A stretch of 64,000 nucleotides of DNA from an uncultured virus (IMG/VR IMGVR_UViG_3300032219_000873) (IMGVR_UViG_3300032219_000873), one strand, 5' to 3'. Shown: positions 3,169-7,630, counted from the stretch's first letter. Program-made: numbers and translations. Notes: generated by a model not told the origin, from the letters alone.

Positions 3169-3348
3169 ATGAATCCAGGACCAAAAGTTATGTGCGCCAG
3201 ATGCCTTGACGTAATCTTTTCGCAGCACCGCCACGACTTTGCTGAGTGCAAGTGTCGTGCAATTGCTATTGACGGGGGTGCTGACTATACTCGCACTGTA
3301 GGCAGCTCAGAAGATTTCATTTGGGACTTTGAGGAGAACAATGGCTAA
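3169..3348 (+). CDS. Small zinc-binding phage protein (CxxC...HRHDF..CxC...IDGG)
   Basis: Read manually, 59 aa; motif typical of small phage zinc-ribbon proteins; extended -10 TGGTATAGT 6 nt upstream. Confidence 0.7.
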   Translation: MNPGPKVMCARCLDVIFSQHRHDFAECKCRAIAIDGGADYTRTVGSSEDFIWDFEENNG

Positions 3349-3457
3349 AGGAACTGGCAAGTTTGGTTGGTGCTCAACTGGACAGCACAGCGAGTGCATC
3401 GTGCACCTCCCTGTTCATGTCGAAGTTAAATGCGAATGTGAGTGCCACGAGCAGTAA
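3341..3457 (+). CDS. 38 aa Cys/His-rich peptide (WCSTGQHSEC...CECECH)
   Basis: Read manually; GAGGAG RBS. Confidence 0.6.
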   Translation: MAKGTGKFGWCSTGQHSECIVHLPVHVEVKCECECHEQ

Positions 3458-3486
3458 ACGTTTAAATTTAGTGCTAGAATTTTATC

Positions 3487-3566
3487 GAACACGCCAACTG
3501 GGTGTTCATACACAACCTGTGCTTCGGGCAGGGATGCTTGAGGCACGTATCGTCTAAGGAGATACT
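3487..3566 (+). promoter_or_regulatory. Structured 5' leader of hsp20 (possible RNA thermometer)
   Basis: TGCTAGAAT -10 at ~3472-3480, then three short hairpins (GAACAC/GTGTTC, CCTGT/GCAGG, GATGC/GTATC) before TAAGGAG. Confidence 0.4.
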
Positions 3567-4094
3567 ATGTCCAGAAATCCATTTGAAATCCAGCCTTGGG
3601 GCAAGGATGACCACTACCCATCAAAGCAGCCTTATAAGGCCCCATCTAGGGTCGACCAGAAGCCTGTTACTATCTACACTCTGTTCCCTAACATTGACCG
3701 TTGGGGTATTGGCTACGACTCTGTGTTCAGCACTCTAACAGAGCTATCACAGCACAAGCCTTCCTTTCCTCCATACAACCTAACTAAGTCTGGCGATAGC
3801 TACACCATCACCATGGCGCTTGCTGGGTTTAAGAAGGAAGAAGTAGAGGTGTTTGTAAAGGACCGTGTTCTCACAGTCCGCTCAGACATCGAAGACCGCA
3901 ACGACATCCCTGAAGAGGGACAGTACGGTCAGGTAATTCACCACGGCATTGCGCAGCGCAACTTCACCACTACCTTTGCTATTGCAGAGTACATTGAGGT
4001 AAAGAGCGCCAAGCTTGAAGACGGACTACTAACCATTATGCTAGAGCTTGAGCTTCCTGAAGAAAAGAAGCCTAAGCAGATTGAGATTAGCTAA
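3567..4094 (+). CDS. hsp20: Small heat-shock protein, Hsp20/IbpA family
   Basis: FPPYNL, ALAGF, HHGIAQRNF, AKLEDGLLTI, PEEKKPKQIEI motifs. Confidence 0.95.
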   Translation: MSRNPFEIQPWGKDDHYPSKQPYKAPSRVDQKPVTIYTLFPNIDRWGIGYDSVFSTLTELSQHKPSFPPYNLTKSGDSYTITMALAGFKKEEVEVFVKDRVLTVRSDIEDRNDIPEEGQYGQVIHHGIAQRNFTTTFAIAEYIEVKSAKLEDGLLTIMLELELPEEKKPKQIEIS

Positions 4095-4318
4095 TGAAAA
4101 TTACTGAAGATATAACTCCACGTCGTTTTGTAGAGGTGTTCGGTCCAGCTCTAGAGGGGTACTTAGAGCAGTCATACGGCAAAGACGGGGCTTACGTCCT
4201 AGATTTGCTCCCACAGGCGTCAGAGTTTTTCAGCGTGTCGTATCACGCTCTTTGTGCTCTGGAGTATGCTGGGTACACTTCTGATTCGGTTGATGTGTCC
4301 GAAGAGGAAGTAAAGTAA
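4094..4318 (+). CDS. Hypothetical protein
   Basis: TAATG coupling with hsp20. Confidence 0.65.
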   Translation: MKITEDITPRRFVEVFGPALEGYLEQSYGKDGAYVLDLLPQASEFFSVSYHALCALEYAGYTSDSVDVSEEEVK

Positions 4319-4321
4319 ACT

Positions 4322-4411
4322 AAATAGCGGTAGGGACAAGGTTTAGCTACTTAACTAACTAAACTAACCAAATCTTCCATTACGTCTTCGGTCTTGTCCC
4401 TGCCTCTATTT
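4322..4411 (+). ncRNA. Long-stem, large-loop hairpin RNA candidate
   Basis: AAATAGCGGTAGGGACAAGG pairs with TCTTGTCCCTGCCTCTATTT; ~45-nt A/C/U-rich loop. Confidence 0.5.
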
Positions 4412-4415
4412 ACTA

Positions 4416-4495
4416 GGGCTGGTGTTGGTAAGTCTGTGGGGGTCTTAATTCCTTTCTTCCCCCCAGAAACGTGGGTTCGACTCCCACCCAGTCCA
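4416..4495 (+). ncRNA. tRNA-Ala/tmRNA-like RNA lacking D stem and normal anticodon arm
   Basis: Acceptor GGGCTGG/CCAGTCC with G3:U70, discriminator A; T arm GTGGG-TTCGACT-CCCAC; central stem with 16-nt loop. Confidence 0.7.
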
Positions 4496-4511
4496 CATGC
4501 AAAGGAGAAAT

Positions 4512-4682
4512 GTGGCTAGTTACGAGTATGAATGCCCTACGTGCAAATCAGTGATTGAGATTTTGCATCCAATTACTGACTCCCCAGTAATTATTTGCGC
4601 GACTTGTGTTGTGGCCAGACGTAAGAAGTTCTCTGTTGGAACCGTTACTTTTAAGGGCAACGGCTGGGGTAAAGACGCCTAA
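4512..4682 (+). CDS. FmdB-family zinc ribbon protein
   Basis: YEYECPTC...CATC...FKGNGW; AAAGGAG RBS before GTG. Confidence 0.85.
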   Translation: MASYEYECPTCKSVIEILHPITDSPVIICATCVVARRKKFSVGTVTFKGNGWGKDA

Positions 4683-4705
4683 TAGCCCATTTTTGACCCT
4701 AAGAC

Positions 4706-4737
4706 CCCGCTATTAGAAATAGCGGGATTTCTTTTTG
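4706..4737 (+). terminator. Rho-independent terminator
   Basis: CCCGCTATT-AGA-AATAGCGGG then ATTTCTTTTT. Confidence 0.8.
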
Positions 4738-4842
4738 TCTAGTTGAACTGCAGGTTAATTTCTACTAGGCTGGGGCCTCATAACTTAATATCGCTCAACA
4801 ATAAACGACCAAGTACTAACGCAAGGAAAGGTAGGTCGCTAA

Positions 4843-5472
4843 ATGAAGAGGTCAGTAATAATCATTACTGTTTCATCCCTGCTGGCGCTTTCGGGAGCGG
4901 CAATCGCCCAGGAACCGAGAACAGCAGTAGAACTTCCAGTAGTGGAGTACAACACTCTCCTAGGAAAAGAAACTGCAATCTCACAAATAGAACAAGATGC
5001 AAAACTCGCTTCTGCTAAAGCAGAGGCAGATGCCCTAACTGCTGCTAGGAAGAGCAAACTAGCTGCGGTGTATGAGCAGCAGAAGGTATCTAACCGAGCT
5101 GAACTAGAATCAATGGTTACAGCAGTACTAGACCGTGTAGGAAAGACCAGATACGTTTTCAGTGGTTCTACGCCACTTGGATGGGACTGCTCAGGCTTAG
5201 TAACTTGGGCTTACGGAGAAATGGGTGTTGAACTACCCCACTCTGCCGCTAAGCAAGCCAAGCTAGGCGCTGAGGTGGAAAAGCCCCAAGTCGGAGACAT
5301 TATCGTATTTGGTAACTCATCTGGATACTTTCACTCCAGTGTTTACGTAGGTGACGGGCTTATTGTCCACTCTGGGTTCAAACCTGGTAGGTATACAGAG
5401 GTTCTCCCTCTAGACCACCCAAGCTTGTCTACCTACAAGACTACTATTCGACGCTATCTAGACATAGACTAG
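4843..5472 (+). CDS. Secreted NlpC/P60 (C40) peptidoglycan endopeptidase
   Basis: Signal peptide, coiled coil, YVFSGSTPLGWDCSGL...GDIIVF...HSSVYVGDGLIVH. Confidence 0.9.
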   Translation: MKRSVIIITVSSLLALSGAAIAQEPRTAVELPVVEYNTLLGKETAISQIEQDAKLASAKAEADALTAARKSKLAAVYEQQKVSNRAELESMVTAVLDRVGKTRYVFSGSTPLGWDCSGLVTWAYGEMGVELPHSAAKQAKLGAEVEKPQVGDIIVFGNSSGYFHSSVYVGDGLIVHSGFKPGRYTEVLPLDHPSLSTYKTTIRRYLDID

Positions 5473-5478
5473 GTAGCA

Positions 5479-5551
5479 CCCTGCGTAGCCCAAAGGCAGA
5501 GGCAAACGACTTAAAATCGTAAAAGTGTCAGTTCGAATCTGACCGCAGGGA
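5479..5551 (+). tRNA. tRNA-Leu(UAA), short variable loop, no encoded CCA
   Basis: Acceptor CCCTGCG/CGCAGGG, anticodon loop CTTAAAA, T arm GTCAG-TTCGAAT-CTGAC, discriminator A. Confidence 0.9.
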
Positions 5552-5593
5552 CTTTAGAGTGTAATAGCTTATAAATCGTGAGAAACTACCATC

Positions 5594-5737
5594 ATGGGTA
5601 GGAATGACGCCTTAGATGACTTCGATTTCGAAGATGACTACGACGACGTCTATTTTGACGGAGACGACTTAGATGATGACCTCCTCTACGCTCTCTTCGA
5701 TGCCGACGAGTACGAGCCTTGGGATGACGAAGAATGA
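5594..5737 (+). CDS. 47 aa extremely acidic protein
   Basis: Read manually: MGRNDALDDFDFEDDYDDVYFDGDDLDDDLLYALFDADEYEPWDDEE; ATGA overlap with next gene. Confidence 0.65.
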   Translation: MGRNDALDDFDFEDDYDDVYFDGDDLDDDLLYALFDADEYEPWDDEE

Positions 5738-6055: not shown

Positions 6056-7630
6056 GTGAAAAACCTGCGAATAATCGCAGCACTACTCCTAGCATTCGGT
6101 CATTTATTTCTAGCATCTCCAGCACAAGCAGCTCAAACAGGGCCTGTTCAGATTACTTGTGAGAAGAATGGTACCCAAGGCACCTATCAGGTGGGTTGGG
6201 ATAACTCTAATCAGTTCTTTATGGGTAAGGGTAACATCGCTGCGCTTTACTGTACGGGAGGGTTCTCTCCACTAAGAGATGGGGCCACATACGTTTCTGA
6301 CACTTTAACTAATGAGTCTCTGCGTTATTACAACGGAGTTGTCCCTACGCCTGCTCCTGAACCGTCTTCCAGTCCCGTAGTATCTGAATCTTCGTCAGTG
6401 TCCTCTGAGAGCCCCAGTTCCACAGAATCGGCATCAGTGAGCTCAGAATCATCAGAGTCACAAACGACAAGCCCAGCTCCTGAGACCACCAGCTCACCAG
6501 AACCAGAAACCCAATCGCCATCAGTGTCAGAAGAAGTGACAGAGTCACCCTCAACGGACTCGTCTTCTTCACCAAGTGTAAGTACAACAGCGCCTTCTCT
6601 TCAATGGGAGTATGTAGTAAATGAAGGTAGCATGCTGGAGGCAGAAGCACCAGCAGGCAAAGTCTTTTCGGGGGCCGTGGCGTGGTATGTAGCTCACGAT
6701 TCTACCTGTGGTATTGATGTGTCCACTATAGTGGCCGCTGCGTTTAACGGCACAACTGCCTCAAGTATTGCTGCAGACAATTCTGTCTTTGGTGACCCTT
6801 GTCCTGGAGAGTATAAAAAGCTAACGGTTACTTTCGTTTACGAGACACTTGTAGGGCCCGCACCGTCACCAGAGCCTACCCCAACACCCCAGCCAGAGCC
6901 AACCCCGCAACCAGAACCAGTCCCAACACCAGAACCAGAACCAACCCCAGAACCCACAGAGGAGCCTTCACCAGTCGAGACACCTGCTCCTGAACCTGAA
7001 CCCACAGAACAACCAACCCCAGAGCCAGTAGAATCACAAGAACCACCAGTGGTCGTAGAGCCCGAGACTCCAGAACCCACAGAAGAACCTTCACCAGAAC
7101 CTACTCCTGAGACAGTTCCTGAAGAGCCAGAACCAGCCCCCACAGAAGACCCGACACCAGAACCAAGTCCCGAACCCACACCTGAGCCTGAACCTGCCCC
7201 AGAAACTCCAGAAGATATAACATCTGATACTCCAATCGAAGACGTTGTAGCTGTACTAGAAGACATTATACCTACAAGCCTGACAGAAGAGCAGGTAGCG
7301 GTGCTGGTAAGTATTGCATTAGAGACGTTTGAGACAGCAGAGCAAGGCTCTCCTGAGTATGAAGCTGCTTTGGACCTTTTGTTAGTCGCTGCTCAGGCAG
7401 ATGACATCGTACTAAATGAGGAACTGGCGGCCATACCGCTTATTGGAAACGTAGCTGGTGCAGCAGTAGAGATATTTAACGCCCTAGGAAACGCAGGAGC
7501 GGACATGTCTCCGCAAGTCCGTGAACAGTCAGAAAAGGTTGTAATCGCAGCCGTCATCGTAGGTCAAATTGCCCTAACCGCAACTTCGGCCGCAACTAGT
7601 GCAGCAGCAGCTGCAGCAAGGAGACCATAA
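6056..7630 (+). CDS. Secreted/membrane-anchored protein with SUEL/Gal-lectin-like domain and Ser- and Pro/Glu/Thr-rich stalks
   Basis: Signal peptide (AQA-AQT), [19 protein letters not shown] motif, PEPT repeats, hydrophobic C-terminus. Confidence 0.75.

What the first reader, a model, noticed from the sequence alone, without database searches (positions are those of the whole stretch)
4416..4495. tRNA-Ala/tmRNA-like scaffold whose anticodon arm displays a 16S anti-Shine-Dalgarno mimic
Seen: 7-bp acceptor stem GGGCUGG/CCAGUCC with G3:U70 and discriminator A, a perfect T arm (GUGGG-UUCGACU-CCCAC), an unpaired 11-nt D region with GG, and a central stem (CUG-U-GGGGG/CCCCCCAG) closing a 16-nt loop UCUUAAUUCCUUUCUU. 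Established: G3:U70 plus A73 is the AlaRS identity element, a stemless D loop is the hallmark of the tmRNA tRNA-like domain, and actinobacterial 16S rRNA ends ...CACCUCCUUUCU, which shares UCCUUUCU with this loop. There is no tag ORF and no 7-nt anticodon loop. Inference: either a mini-tmRNA (rescue without tagging, or an SmpB decoy), or a nuclease-stable tRNA scaffold presenting an anti-SD guide. The guide could act in trans, or in cis on the AAAGGAG RBS just downstream (4501-4507).
Basis: partly seen in the sequence, partly recalled or inferred. Interest (0 to 1): 0.85.

Follow-up and report, generated by a model that had tools for sequence, protein, structure and literature searches.

The report
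Phage mini-tmRNA scaffold with pyrimidine loop
A lake phage carries a small tRNA-shaped RNA, apparently descended from the message-less "mini-tmRNAs" of phages, whose exposed loop resembles a pyrimidine stretch of ribosomal RNA and stays unchanged in relatives, which hints at an undescribed way of tampering with host translation.

Summary
Window 4416-4495 (+) folds into a 7-bp acceptor stem (G3:U70, A73), a stemless D region, a bulged central stem with an open 16-nt pyrimidine loop, and a canonical T arm.

It is not a decayed tRNA. I found eight distinct versions in phage and metagenome contigs. Their stems carry compensatory changes, and the loop core UUCCUUUC is invariant. That holds in 5 of 5 versions found without using the loop as bait.

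It is best read as a diverged offshoot of the phage "TLD-only" mini-tmRNA family, known from mycobacteriophage DS6A and noted before by this scan on other DNA. Covariance models built only from canonical members score it 36.7-48.8 bits, against 25 bits or less for ordinary tRNAs. A canonical member occupies the same slot upstream of the same zinc-ribbon gene in another lineage.

The pyrimidine loop replaces the family's usual tip hairpin. Some relatives lose G3:U70 and the D/T-loop contact but keep the loop, so the loop is probably the working part.

The mechanism is inferred, not shown. I favour anti-Shine-Dalgarno-type pairing. Rivals are SmpB titration, an rRNA-mimic decoy, and cis control of the downstream gene. 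No expression data cover the element. It is a new variant of a known kind.

The parts
4416..4495 (+). The whole tRNA-like / TLD-like RNA (80 nt, no encoded CCA)
   Evidence: Sequence. Folds. Rfam tRNA 27.5 bits. TLD-only models R1 48.8 bits and R2 36.7 bits.
4416..4422 (+). Acceptor stem, 5' strand GGGCUGG. G4418 is G3 of the G3:U70 pair.
   Evidence: GGGCUG is kept in 8 of 8 versions. G3:U70 is kept in 6 of 8.
4423..4432 (+). Stemless D region UGUUGGUAAG with GG
   Evidence: GG is present only in the 5 versions that also have the canonical T loop UUCGACU.
4433..4467 (+). Central bulged stem-loop, in the position of tmRNA helix P2 / the anticodon arm
   Evidence: MFE. The stem sequence differs among versions but pairing is kept: GGGGG/CCCCC, GAGGGG/CUCCUC, GCUGG/CCAGU, GGUC/GACC.
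4443..4458 (+). Open 16-nt pyrimidine loop UCUUAAUUCCUUUCUU
   Evidence: P(unpaired) 0.91. Identical 16 nt in the marine contig version L141. Shares 8 nt with the 16S tail and 8 nt with the 23S H70 stretch.
4449..4456 (+). Invariant loop core UUCCUUUC
   Evidence: Present in 8 of 8 versions, including 5 of 5 found without the motif as bait.
4471..4487 (+). T arm GUGGG-UUCGACU-CCCAC
   Evidence: Three of five stem pairs show double (compensatory) changes across versions.
4488..4495 (+). Acceptor 3' strand CCAGUCC plus discriminator A
4321..4412 (+). Conserved long hairpin (about 19-bp stem, large loop) ending 3 nt before the element
   Evidence: Folds of 9 versions show many compensatory changes. 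It is also present in L029, which lacks the element.
4501..4507 (+). Shine-Dalgarno AAAGGAG of the downstream gene, 5 nt after the element
   Evidence: A purine-rich SD is kept in all versions. Loop-SD duplex is -6.1 kcal/mol.
4512..4682 (+). FmdB-like zinc-ribbon ORF (56 aa, GTG start)
   Evidence: Pfam Zn_ribbon_8 at 32.1 bits, just under its 34.4 cut-off. It follows the element in 8 of 8 versions.
4706..4735 (+). Terminator-like hairpin plus T run that closes the unit
3567..4318 (+). Upstream genes of the same unit: hsp20 (3567-4094) and a 74-aa ORF (4094-4318)
   Evidence: PHROG and Pfam Hsp20 matches. No sigma-70-like promoter on the + strand in 3300-5700.

Best explanation
This is a genuine small RNA gene. 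It is a diverged offshoot of the phage TLD-only ('mini-tmRNA') lineage that has been re-used as a tRNA-shaped scaffold.

It lies inside the hsp20 - orf74 - hairpin - element - FmdB transcription unit. I infer that RNase P cuts it out at G4416 and that tRNA 3'-end enzymes cut after A4495, followed by CCA addition. The long hairpin just upstream would then cap the 3' end of the upstream message.

The acceptor/T-arm part supplies processing and stability. In the window's own copy it may also still allow alanine charging and SmpB binding.

The working part is the open 14-16-nt pyrimidine loop with the invariant core UUCCUUUC. I think it most likely works by base pairing with purine-rich, Shine-Dalgarno-type sequences (GAAAGGA / AAAGGAG). 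That would make it an anti-SD-like regulatory RNA acting in trans, and possibly also on the RBS 5 nt downstream.

What is shown: the fold, its conservation, its family relationship and the invariance of the loop. What is inferred: transcription, processing and the mode of action.
For: Family relationship:
- Model R1, built from 6 bona fide TLD-only RNAs, scores the window 48.8 bits. The 93 canonical members score 44.4-88.6 and tRNAs 12.7-24.3.
- Model R2, built from 93 canonical members, scores the window 36.7 bits and tRNAs 25.1 or less. The Microbacterium phage TLD-like RNAs score 36.0-37.9.
- A canonical TLD-only tmRNA sits directly upstream of the homologous gene's RBS in L007.
- The complete 91.6-kb relative has no other TLD-like RNA.

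The loop as the working part:
- UUCCUUUC is present in 8 of 8 versions, while the stems, the D region, the T loop and G3:U70 all vary.
- The 16-nt loop is identical in a marine contig whose D region and T arm differ.
- The loop is predicted unpaired.
- None of 99 unique canonical members has a pyrimidine run of 8 or more there.

Operon context: a terminator lies after FmdB and there is no promoter-like site upstream on the + strand.

Pairing: the core is complementary to AAAGGA-type SDs. Examples are the FmdB RBS (7 bp including one G.U) and the capsid gene RBS (-11.1 kcal/mol).

From established knowledge (recalled): an acceptor/T-arm minihelix is sufficient for RNase P, and C/U-rich loops that pair with SD regions are a common sRNA mechanism in Gram-positive bacteria.
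Against: - No RNA evidence. The single metatranscriptome run covers only parts of hsp20.
- The loop lacks the CCUCC core that a best SD binder would have.
- Its duplex with gene starts (mean -5.0 kcal/mol) is weaker than that of a 16S-tail yardstick (-6.7), and the FmdB value (-6.1) is unremarkable.
- No extended complement of the loop exists elsewhere in the 64 kb (8 matches at 3 or fewer mismatches against 6.6 expected).
- The phage's own genes use the same kind of SD, so it is unclear how a trans effect would be selective.
- Family membership is at the low end. The D-loop motif GGUUUYGAC and the tip hairpin are not kept. The shortest and most altered versions (L119, L141, L106, L105) score like tRNAs or not at all.
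- Three of the eight versions were found with a pattern that required TTCCTTTC, so for those the loop is conserved by construction.
Confidence: 0.4

Rival explanations
1. It is an SmpB / trans-translation decoy like other TLD-only mini-tmRNAs. The RNA is charged or simply binds SmpB and so blocks or diverts host ribosome rescue and tagging. On this reading the loop is only a tolerated replacement of the tip hairpin.
For: Family relationship. The window copy keeps G3:U70, A73, GG in the D region and a canonical T loop. In passages of PMC4131195 and PMC11915505, the DS6A TLD-only RNA is described, and a similar molecule is reported to inhibit tmRNA strongly in E. coli, perhaps by titrating SmpB.
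Against: The motifs most conserved in canonical members (GGUUUYGAC, GGAC, tip hairpin) are altered or gone. Three of eight versions lack GG and have a changed T loop, and 2 of 8 have G3:C70, yet all keep the loop. This pattern points to selection on the loop rather than on the TLD surface.
Confidence: 0.2
2. It is an rRNA-mimic decoy. The loop imitates single-stranded pyrimidine segments of the ribosome (the 16S 3' tail and the 23S helix/loop 70 stretch) that sequence-specific toxins of actinobacteria cut. The RNA would soak up or inhibit such a toxin during infection.
For: The loop shares UCCUUUCU with the 16S tail and AAUUCCUU with the 23S stretch read from E. coli rrlH. For shuffled loops of the same composition this happens in 1.6% and 0.2% of cases, and both together in 0.025%. 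The invariant core contains both UUCCU and UCCUU, which are the reported cleavage motifs of MazF-mt6 and MazF-mt3, toxins that cut 23S H70 and the 16S anti-SD (passages of PMC5408214, and PMC12274833). The portal protein is 54.7% identical to Streptomyces phages, so the host is probably an actinobacterium. The identical loop in marine and freshwater versions fits a universal target.
Against: The comparison with 23S was made after seeing the loop. The AA before UUCC is not kept in L106 and L119. The host, and whether it has such toxins, is unknown. A cleavable decoy is consumed by a multiple-turnover nuclease. There is no direct evidence.
Confidence: 0.13
3. It is a cis-acting leader of the FmdB-like gene. 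The loop either sequesters the SD 5 nt downstream (as a pseudoknot) or serves as a pyrimidine-rich standby or S1 site, and the tRNA-like fold sets the 5' end of that message.
For: The element is followed by SD plus FmdB in 8 of 8 versions. 7-9 bp of complementarity is possible. Of 98 canonical TLD-only RNAs, 23 also have an SD-like motif within 30 nt downstream.
Against: The pairing is weak and not better than for other genes. L029 has the same hairpin, SD and gene without the element. The canonical TLD in L007 sits at the same place with no pyrimidine loop. There is no covariation between loop and SD. The loop and the 3' end lie far apart in an L-shaped fold (inference).
Confidence: 0.12
4. 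It is only a processing signal ('tRNA punctuation', as with mascRNA behind MALAT1). RNase P cleavage separates the hsp20 message, capped by the long hairpin, from the FmdB message, and the excised RNA has no function of its own.
For: Intercistronic position directly behind a conserved long hairpin. Weak Rfam resemblance to mascRNA (16.5 bits, E 0.9).
Against: This does not explain an invariant 8-nt loop core across versions whose stems have all changed. L029 manages without the element.
Confidence: 0.08
5. It is a decayed tRNA-Ala pseudogene or a chance tRNA-like fold.
For: It falls below the Rfam tRNA gathering score (27.5 against 29) and ARAGORN does not call it.
Against: Eight versions carry compensatory stem changes and an invariant loop. 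The element has fewer variants than the neighbouring CDS. No homologue has a D stem or a 7-nt anticodon loop.
Confidence: 0.02

Closest known systems
TLD-only ('CDS-less') tmRNA of mycobacteriophage DS6A and its unannotated relatives in other phages
   Same: About 80 nt. 7-bp acceptor stem with G3:U70 and A73, stemless D loop with GG, one central hairpin in place of the whole mRNA-like part, canonical T arm, and phage-encoded. The window scores in or near the family range with models built only from such RNAs.
   Different: The D-loop motif GGUUUYGAC and the GGAC before the T arm are changed (to GGUAAGUC and AAAC). The family's tip hairpin (AAAGCC-GCACGC-GGA type) is replaced by an open pyrimidine loop that none of 99 unique canonical members has. 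Sister versions lose G3:U70 and the D/T-loop contact.
Bacterial tmRNA (Rfam RF00023)
   Same: tRNA-like domain architecture with alanine identity marks.
   Different: No resume codon, tag ORF or pseudoknots. A near-identical copy scores 24.5 bits against a cut-off of 47, which is the same range as ordinary tRNAs.
tRNA-Ala / tRNA (Rfam RF00005)
   Same: Acceptor stem, G3:U70, A73 and T arm. The tRNA model aligns end to end.
   Different: No D stem, no 7-nt anticodon loop and no anticodon. It is below the gathering score and ARAGORN does not call it.
mascRNA / MALAT1-type tRNA-like processing signals and mitochondrial tRNA punctuation (recalled)
   Same: A tRNA-like fold inside a longer transcript, directly behind a structure that could protect the new 3' end.
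   Different: Only a weak Rfam resemblance (16.5 bits, E 0.9). Those signals have no conserved displayed loop. The domain of life is different.
C/U-rich-loop regulatory RNAs of Gram-positive bacteria (e.g. actinobacterial 6C RNA, staphylococcal RsaE; recalled) and engineered 'tRNA scaffold' RNAs (recalled)
   Same: An exposed pyrimidine loop able to pair with purine-rich SD regions, and a functional sequence displayed where the anticodon arm would be.
   Different: No sequence homology was tested or expected. Here the scaffold is natural and derived from tmRNA.

Membership tests
tRNA (RF00005) | Score at or above the Rfam gathering threshold, or a call by a tRNA finder | tested here: not met
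   27.5 bits against 29. Not listed at gathering threshold. ARAGORN finds only tRNA-Leu at 5479-5552.
tRNA (RF00005) | D stem and a 7-nt anticodon loop with an anticodon | tested here: not met
   The D region is unpaired and the central loop is 14-16 nt in all 8 versions.
tRNA (RF00005) | 7-bp acceptor stem and a T arm with a UUCGA-type loop | tested here: met
tmRNA (RF00023) | Score at or above the gathering threshold of 47 bits | tested here: not met
   The near-identical copy in G002 scores 24.5 bits and ordinary tRNAs score 21.5-23.7 in the same search. No tmRNA hit in the window at gathering threshold.
tmRNA (RF00023) | mRNA-like domain with resume codon and tag ORF, plus pseudoknots | tested here: not met
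   Only 35 nt lie between the D region and the T arm, forming a single hairpin.
tmRNA (RF00023) | tRNA-like domain: G3:U70, A73 and a D loop without a stem | tested here: met
Phage TLD-only mini-tmRNA (DS6A type) | Size about 75-92 nt, with a 7-bp acceptor stem carrying G3:U70 and followed by A | tested here: met
   Window: 80 nt with G3:U70 and A73. Family: G3:U70 in 6 of 6 reference RNAs. In the IMG/VR set U70 was required by the search pattern, and 98 of 99 unique sequences have a 7/7 acceptor stem.
Phage TLD-only mini-tmRNA (DS6A type) | Score with covariance models built only from family members, compared with tRNAs | tested here: met
   R1: window 48.8 bits, canonical members 44.4-88.6, tRNAs 24.3 or less. 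R2: window 36.7 bits, tRNAs 25.1 or less, and Franklin22, Katzastrophic, DS6A, BRock and L075 at 36.0, 37.9, 62.9, 75.3 and 77.5. This is the low end of the family. The margin over the best tRNA is 11-24 bits.
Phage TLD-only mini-tmRNA (DS6A type) | D-loop motif GG(U)UUYGA(C) and G(G)AC before the T arm | tested here: not met
   The window has GGUAAGUC and AAAC. AAAC also occurs in the Microbacterium phage RNAs. In the 93 canonical sequences this motif was part of the search pattern.
Phage TLD-only mini-tmRNA (DS6A type) | Tip of the central arm is a short conserved hairpin (AAAGCC-GCACGC-GGA type) | tested here: not met
   It is replaced by the open pyrimidine loop. No pyrimidine run of 8 or more occurs in the middle of 99 unique canonical members.
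Phage TLD-only mini-tmRNA (DS6A type) | Alanylation by AlaRS, SmpB binding, and inhibition of trans-translation | not testable with these tools
   Needs biochemistry. G3:C70 in 2 of 8 sister versions argues that charging is dispensable in the clade.

The most novel reading that the evidence does not exclude
Phages have turned a tmRNA-derived, tRNA-shaped scaffold into a display stand for a mimic of the ribosome's own exposed pyrimidine segments: the 16S 3' tail carrying the anti-SD, and the 23S helix/loop 70 stretch. On this reading the RNA is a decoy or inhibitor for ribosome-cutting toxins (MazF- or RelE-type abortive-infection nucleases), that is, an RNA counter-defence that protects ribosomes.
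Probability: 0.13. Interest if true: 0.88.

Novelty: new variant of a known kind. Interest (0 to 1): 0.62.

Why it matters
Message-less mini-tmRNAs are barely described in print. One phage example (DS6A) appears in the two papers I read in passages, and two full-text searches found nothing on tRNA-like anti-SD mimics or named mini-tmRNAs in phages.

This window shows what that family can evolve into. The tRNA/tmRNA features relax, while a new, strictly conserved loop that resembles rRNA takes over.

If the loop acts on SD sequences, or on enzymes that recognise rRNA tails, it would be a new route by which phages manipulate host translation or evade defence. It would also be a natural precedent for tRNA-scaffolded functional RNAs.

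The finding also flags unannotated RNA genes in cultured actinophages (BRock, Franklin22, Katzastrophic).

Tried and rejected
Searches that found nothing useful:
- Megablast of 3400-5700 against cultured phages found no match.
- The window's own assembly is not held, and the nearest record G001 (18.5 kb) lacks the region.
- A genome-contig scan with the family pattern gave one chance hit in a Hungatella MAG with no tRNA-like fold. I therefore found no copy in bacterial genomes, and gained no host clue.
- Earlier-findings look-ups by sequence, by FmdB words and by place returned nothing.
- Schifano et al. 2013 (PMC3666664) is not held, and the 2014 MazF-mt3 paper was not found as a held text. 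The toxin specificities are therefore taken from passages of a review and of a 2025 paper.

RNA evidence: 20 runs hold parts of the stretch. The one RNA run (contigs only, share 0.04) covers pieces of hsp20 only, so nothing can be said about expression or ends of the element.

Rfam tmRNA as a discriminator: window-type copies score like ordinary tRNAs, so the test is uninformative.

Pattern-scan hits that were dropped:
- Of the 41 IMG/VR hits to GGGCTG..TTCCTTTC..CAGYCCA, 34 are chance matches inside coding-like sequence, many of them copies of one sequence.
- L118 is a tRNA-like RNA with a CU-rich centre in a different context. Models R1 and R2 do not detect it, so I left it out of all counts.
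- L138 from the metagenome scan was also left out, because no tRNA-like fold is evident.

Alignments: MAFFT alignments A1 and A3 misplace the helices, so I used model-guided alignment A4 and per-sequence folds instead.

Hypothesis checks that came back negative:
- The loop has no extended target in the window.
- FmdB as a general partner of TLD-only RNAs: only 1 of 98 unique canonical members is followed by an FmdB-like N-terminus within 60 nt.

Full report
**Observation.**
- Acceptor stem GGGCUGG/CCAGUCC with G3:U70, and discriminator A.
- An unpaired D region with GG.
- A bulged central stem closing the 16-nt loop UCUUAAUUCCUUUCUU.
- A T arm GUGGG-UUCGACU-CCCAC.
- AAAGGAG at 4501-4507, ahead of a GTG-initiated 56-aa ORF.

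The MFE structure is this cloverleaf-like fold at -32.7 kcal/mol. Its z-score against 500 shuffles is -3.3. In context, the loop and the SD are predicted unpaired (0.91 and 0.95).

ARAGORN and Rfam at gathering thresholds find only the ordinary tRNA-Leu(UAA) at 5479-5552. At relaxed threshold the Rfam tRNA model aligns to 4416-4495 end to end at 27.5 bits, just under its cut-off of 29. It treats the D region and the central loop as inserts.

**Setting.** The window is a tailed phage. It encodes terminase, portal, major head, sheath and baseplate proteins. Its portal is 54.7% identical to those of Streptomyces phages of the BRock group. GC content is about 48%. Runs that hold the stretch are lake, aquatic and freshwater metagenomes.

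The element lies between an hsp20 gene plus a 74-aa ORF and an FmdB-like zinc-ribbon ORF (Pfam Zn_ribbon_8 at 32.1 bits, cut-off 34.4). A terminator-like site follows that ORF at 4706-4735. No sigma-70-like promoter is seen on the + strand between 3300 and 5700. The element therefore probably sits inside a polycistronic transcript (inference).

**Homologues.** I collected homologues by routes that do and do not depend on the loop.
- An exact search with the T arm plus acceptor 3' strand found two IMG/VR contigs.
- Searches with the FmdB-like protein (23 loci) and with Hsp20 (49 loci) brought in further neighbours.
- Context-free patterns found more in IMG/VR: 41 loci, of which 6 are true window-type members plus one distant look-alike, L118.
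- The same approach in metagenomes found 7 loci, 6 of them true.

In all there are eight distinct versions: window, L117, L129, L139, L141, L119, L106 and L105. All fold into the same architecture: acceptor stem, unpaired D region, central hairpin, T arm.

The stems differ by compensatory changes.
- Three of five T-stem pairs change on both sides.
- The central stem is GGGGG/CCCCC, GAGGGG/CUCCUC, GCUGG/CCAGU or GGUC/GACC in different versions.

The loop core UUCCUUUC is present in 8 of 8. Three of these (L105, L139, L141) were found with a pattern that required it. The other five were found without it, and all five have it.

The marine contig version L141 has the very same 16-nt loop as the window, although its D region, T stem and T loop differ.

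In DNA contigs of three further runs, only two positions inside the element vary. One is at the loop edge (4458). The other turns a U:A T-stem pair into U.G (4486). The adjoining coding stretch shows about 20 listed changes in 130 nt.

The homologues have no D stem and no 7-nt anticodon loop, and the loop is conserved. A decayed tRNA is excluded.

**What family it belongs to.** In another phage lineage, whose FmdB-like protein is 46% identical, the same slot directly upstream of that gene's RBS holds an 81-nt RNA (L007). It matches the Rfam tmRNA model at 56.6 bits (cut-off 47), with the whole internal 310 positions replaced by 17 nt. L022 has a second such RNA at 54.4 bits.

These are "TLD-only" tmRNAs. 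This kind is recorded for mycobacteriophage DS6A. The authors note that a similar molecule strongly inhibits tmRNA, perhaps by titrating SmpB. I read this in passages of PMC4131195 and PMC11915505. Earlier notes of this scan had reported such RNAs on other DNA, some just after hsp20 in freshwater phages of 93-94 kb.

I fetched the DS6A RNA. I also found unannotated ones in Streptomyces phage BRock and in Microbacterium phages Franklin22 and Katzastrophic.

These give 99 unique sequences of 65-92 nt with a very uniform design.

Model scores:
- Model R1, from six bona fide members, scores the window 48.8 bits. The 93 canonical members score 44.4-88.6 and ordinary tRNAs 12.7-24.3.
- Model R2, from the 93 canonical members alone, scores the window 36.7 bits and its closest versions 30.1-34.6.
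- With R2 the Microbacterium phage RNAs score 36.0-37.9, DS6A 62.9, BRock 75.3, and tRNAs 25.1 or less.

The Rfam tmRNA model itself cannot discriminate. A window-type copy scores 24.5 bits and ordinary tRNAs 21.5-23.7.

The complete 91.6-kb relative has no other TLD-like RNA. The window has no second hit.

I conclude that the element is a diverged member or offshoot of the TLD-only lineage, at the low end of the family by score. Descent from a tRNA-Ala is not strictly excluded.

**What is different.** Canonical members keep three motifs:
- a D-loop motif GGUUUYGAC;
- GGAC before the T arm;
- a short tip hairpin of the AAAGCC-GCACGC-GGA type. Part of this is imposed by my search pattern.

The window has GGUAAGUC and AAAC. 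Instead of the tip hairpin it has the open pyrimidine loop. None of the 99 unique canonical sequences has a pyrimidine run of 8 or more in that region.

Within the window-type clade the tRNA-like features relax.
- G3:U70 is kept in 6 of 8 versions. L106 and L105 have G3:C70.
- The five versions with GG in the D region have the canonical T loop UUCGACU.
- The three versions without GG (L141, L106, L105) have UGCAAYU. This looks like joint loss of the D-loop/T-loop contact.
- The most altered versions are no longer recognised by R1 or R2.

Only the loop stays fixed. Selection therefore seems to act mainly on the loop, with the acceptor/T-arm part kept as a scaffold.

**How it may work.** What is shown is the fold, its conservation, its family relationship and the invariance of the loop. 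What follows is inferred.

- Processing: an acceptor/T-arm helix is what RNase P and tRNA 3'-end enzymes need (established knowledge, recalled). The RNA is therefore probably excised from the operon transcript. The conserved long hairpin ending 3 nt upstream has many compensatory changes and is also present in L029, which lacks the element. It would then cap the upstream message.
- Base pairing (favoured, 0.4): I favour pairing of the loop with purine-rich SD-type sequences. The core is complementary to AAAGGA-type SDs, and exposed C/U-rich loops are a common sRNA device (recalled). The support is modest. The duplex with the FmdB RBS is only -6.1 kcal/mol, against a mean of -5.0 over 85 crude gene starts. 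The loop lacks CCUCC. No extended target exists in the window.
- SmpB decoy, the family function (0.2): weakened by the decay of TLD motifs.
- rRNA mimic (0.13): the loop shares 8 nt with the 16S tail and 8 nt with the 23S helix/loop 70 stretch read from E. coli rrlH. This occurs in 1.6%, 0.2% and, jointly, 0.025% of shuffled loops, although the 23S comparison was made post hoc. The invariant core contains both UUCCU and UCCUU, the reported motifs of MazF-mt6 and MazF-mt3, which cut exactly those rRNA sites (passages read).
- Cis leader for FmdB (0.12): weakened by L029, which lacks the element, and by the loop-less canonical TLD at the same place in L007.
- Pure processing signal (0.08): does not explain the invariant loop.

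There are no RNA data for the element.

**Novelty.** Phage TLD-only tmRNAs are known, and this scan has met them before. New here is a subfamily in which the tip hairpin is replaced by a strictly conserved, rRNA-like pyrimidine loop while the tRNA identity features erode. Two full-text searches found no description of such an RNA. Papers outside the held library were not searched. I rate it a new variant of a known kind, with interest 0.62.

Noticed in passing
window 4321-4412: A conserved long hairpin (about 19-bp stem, roughly 50-nt loop) starts right after the stop codon of the 74-aa ORF and ends 3 nt before the element. Nine versions keep it through many compensatory changes, including L029, which lacks the tRNA-like element. 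It has no U tract. It may be an RNase III site or a 3'-end cap.
   Followed up: partly
L132 550-627 (KX925554.1 97143-97220, minus strand); L131 351-438 (NC_073427.1 39916-40003); L133 350-438 (OL742562.1 41011-41099): The cultured actinophages BRock, Franklin22 and Katzastrophic carry unannotated TLD-only mini-tmRNA-like genes next to their tRNA genes. All have G3:U70, and Franklin22 has an encoded CCA.
   Followed up: partly
Of 98 unique, 23 have an SD-like motif within 30 nt downstream, so many appear to sit as leaders directly ahead of an ORF.
   Followed up: partly
L075 1501-1581 compared with L006, L012 and L013: As with L029 in the window's lineage, close relatives of L007 have the same junction and FmdB-like gene without the TLD. 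The RNA is therefore present or absent at the same spot in two lineages, by insertion or by repeated loss.
   Followed up: no
L118 401-482 (minus strand of the locus): A tRNA-like RNA (acceptor GGGCUG/CAGCCC, T arm UUCAG-UUCGACU-CUGAA) whose centre is full of UUUCC/UUCCUUUCC repeats, lying in a different gene context upstream of an HNH-like ORF. It may be an independent case of a pyrimidine display on a tRNA scaffold.
   Followed up: partly
window 5479-5552: An ordinary tRNA-Leu(UAA), 57 bits. It is also present at the matching place in the relative L003.
   Followed up: no
window 4843-5472 and 6056-7630: A secreted-looking NlpC/P60 peptidase, and a 524-aa protein with long Pro/Thr/Glu-rich repeats, lie just downstream of the operon.
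   Followed up: no
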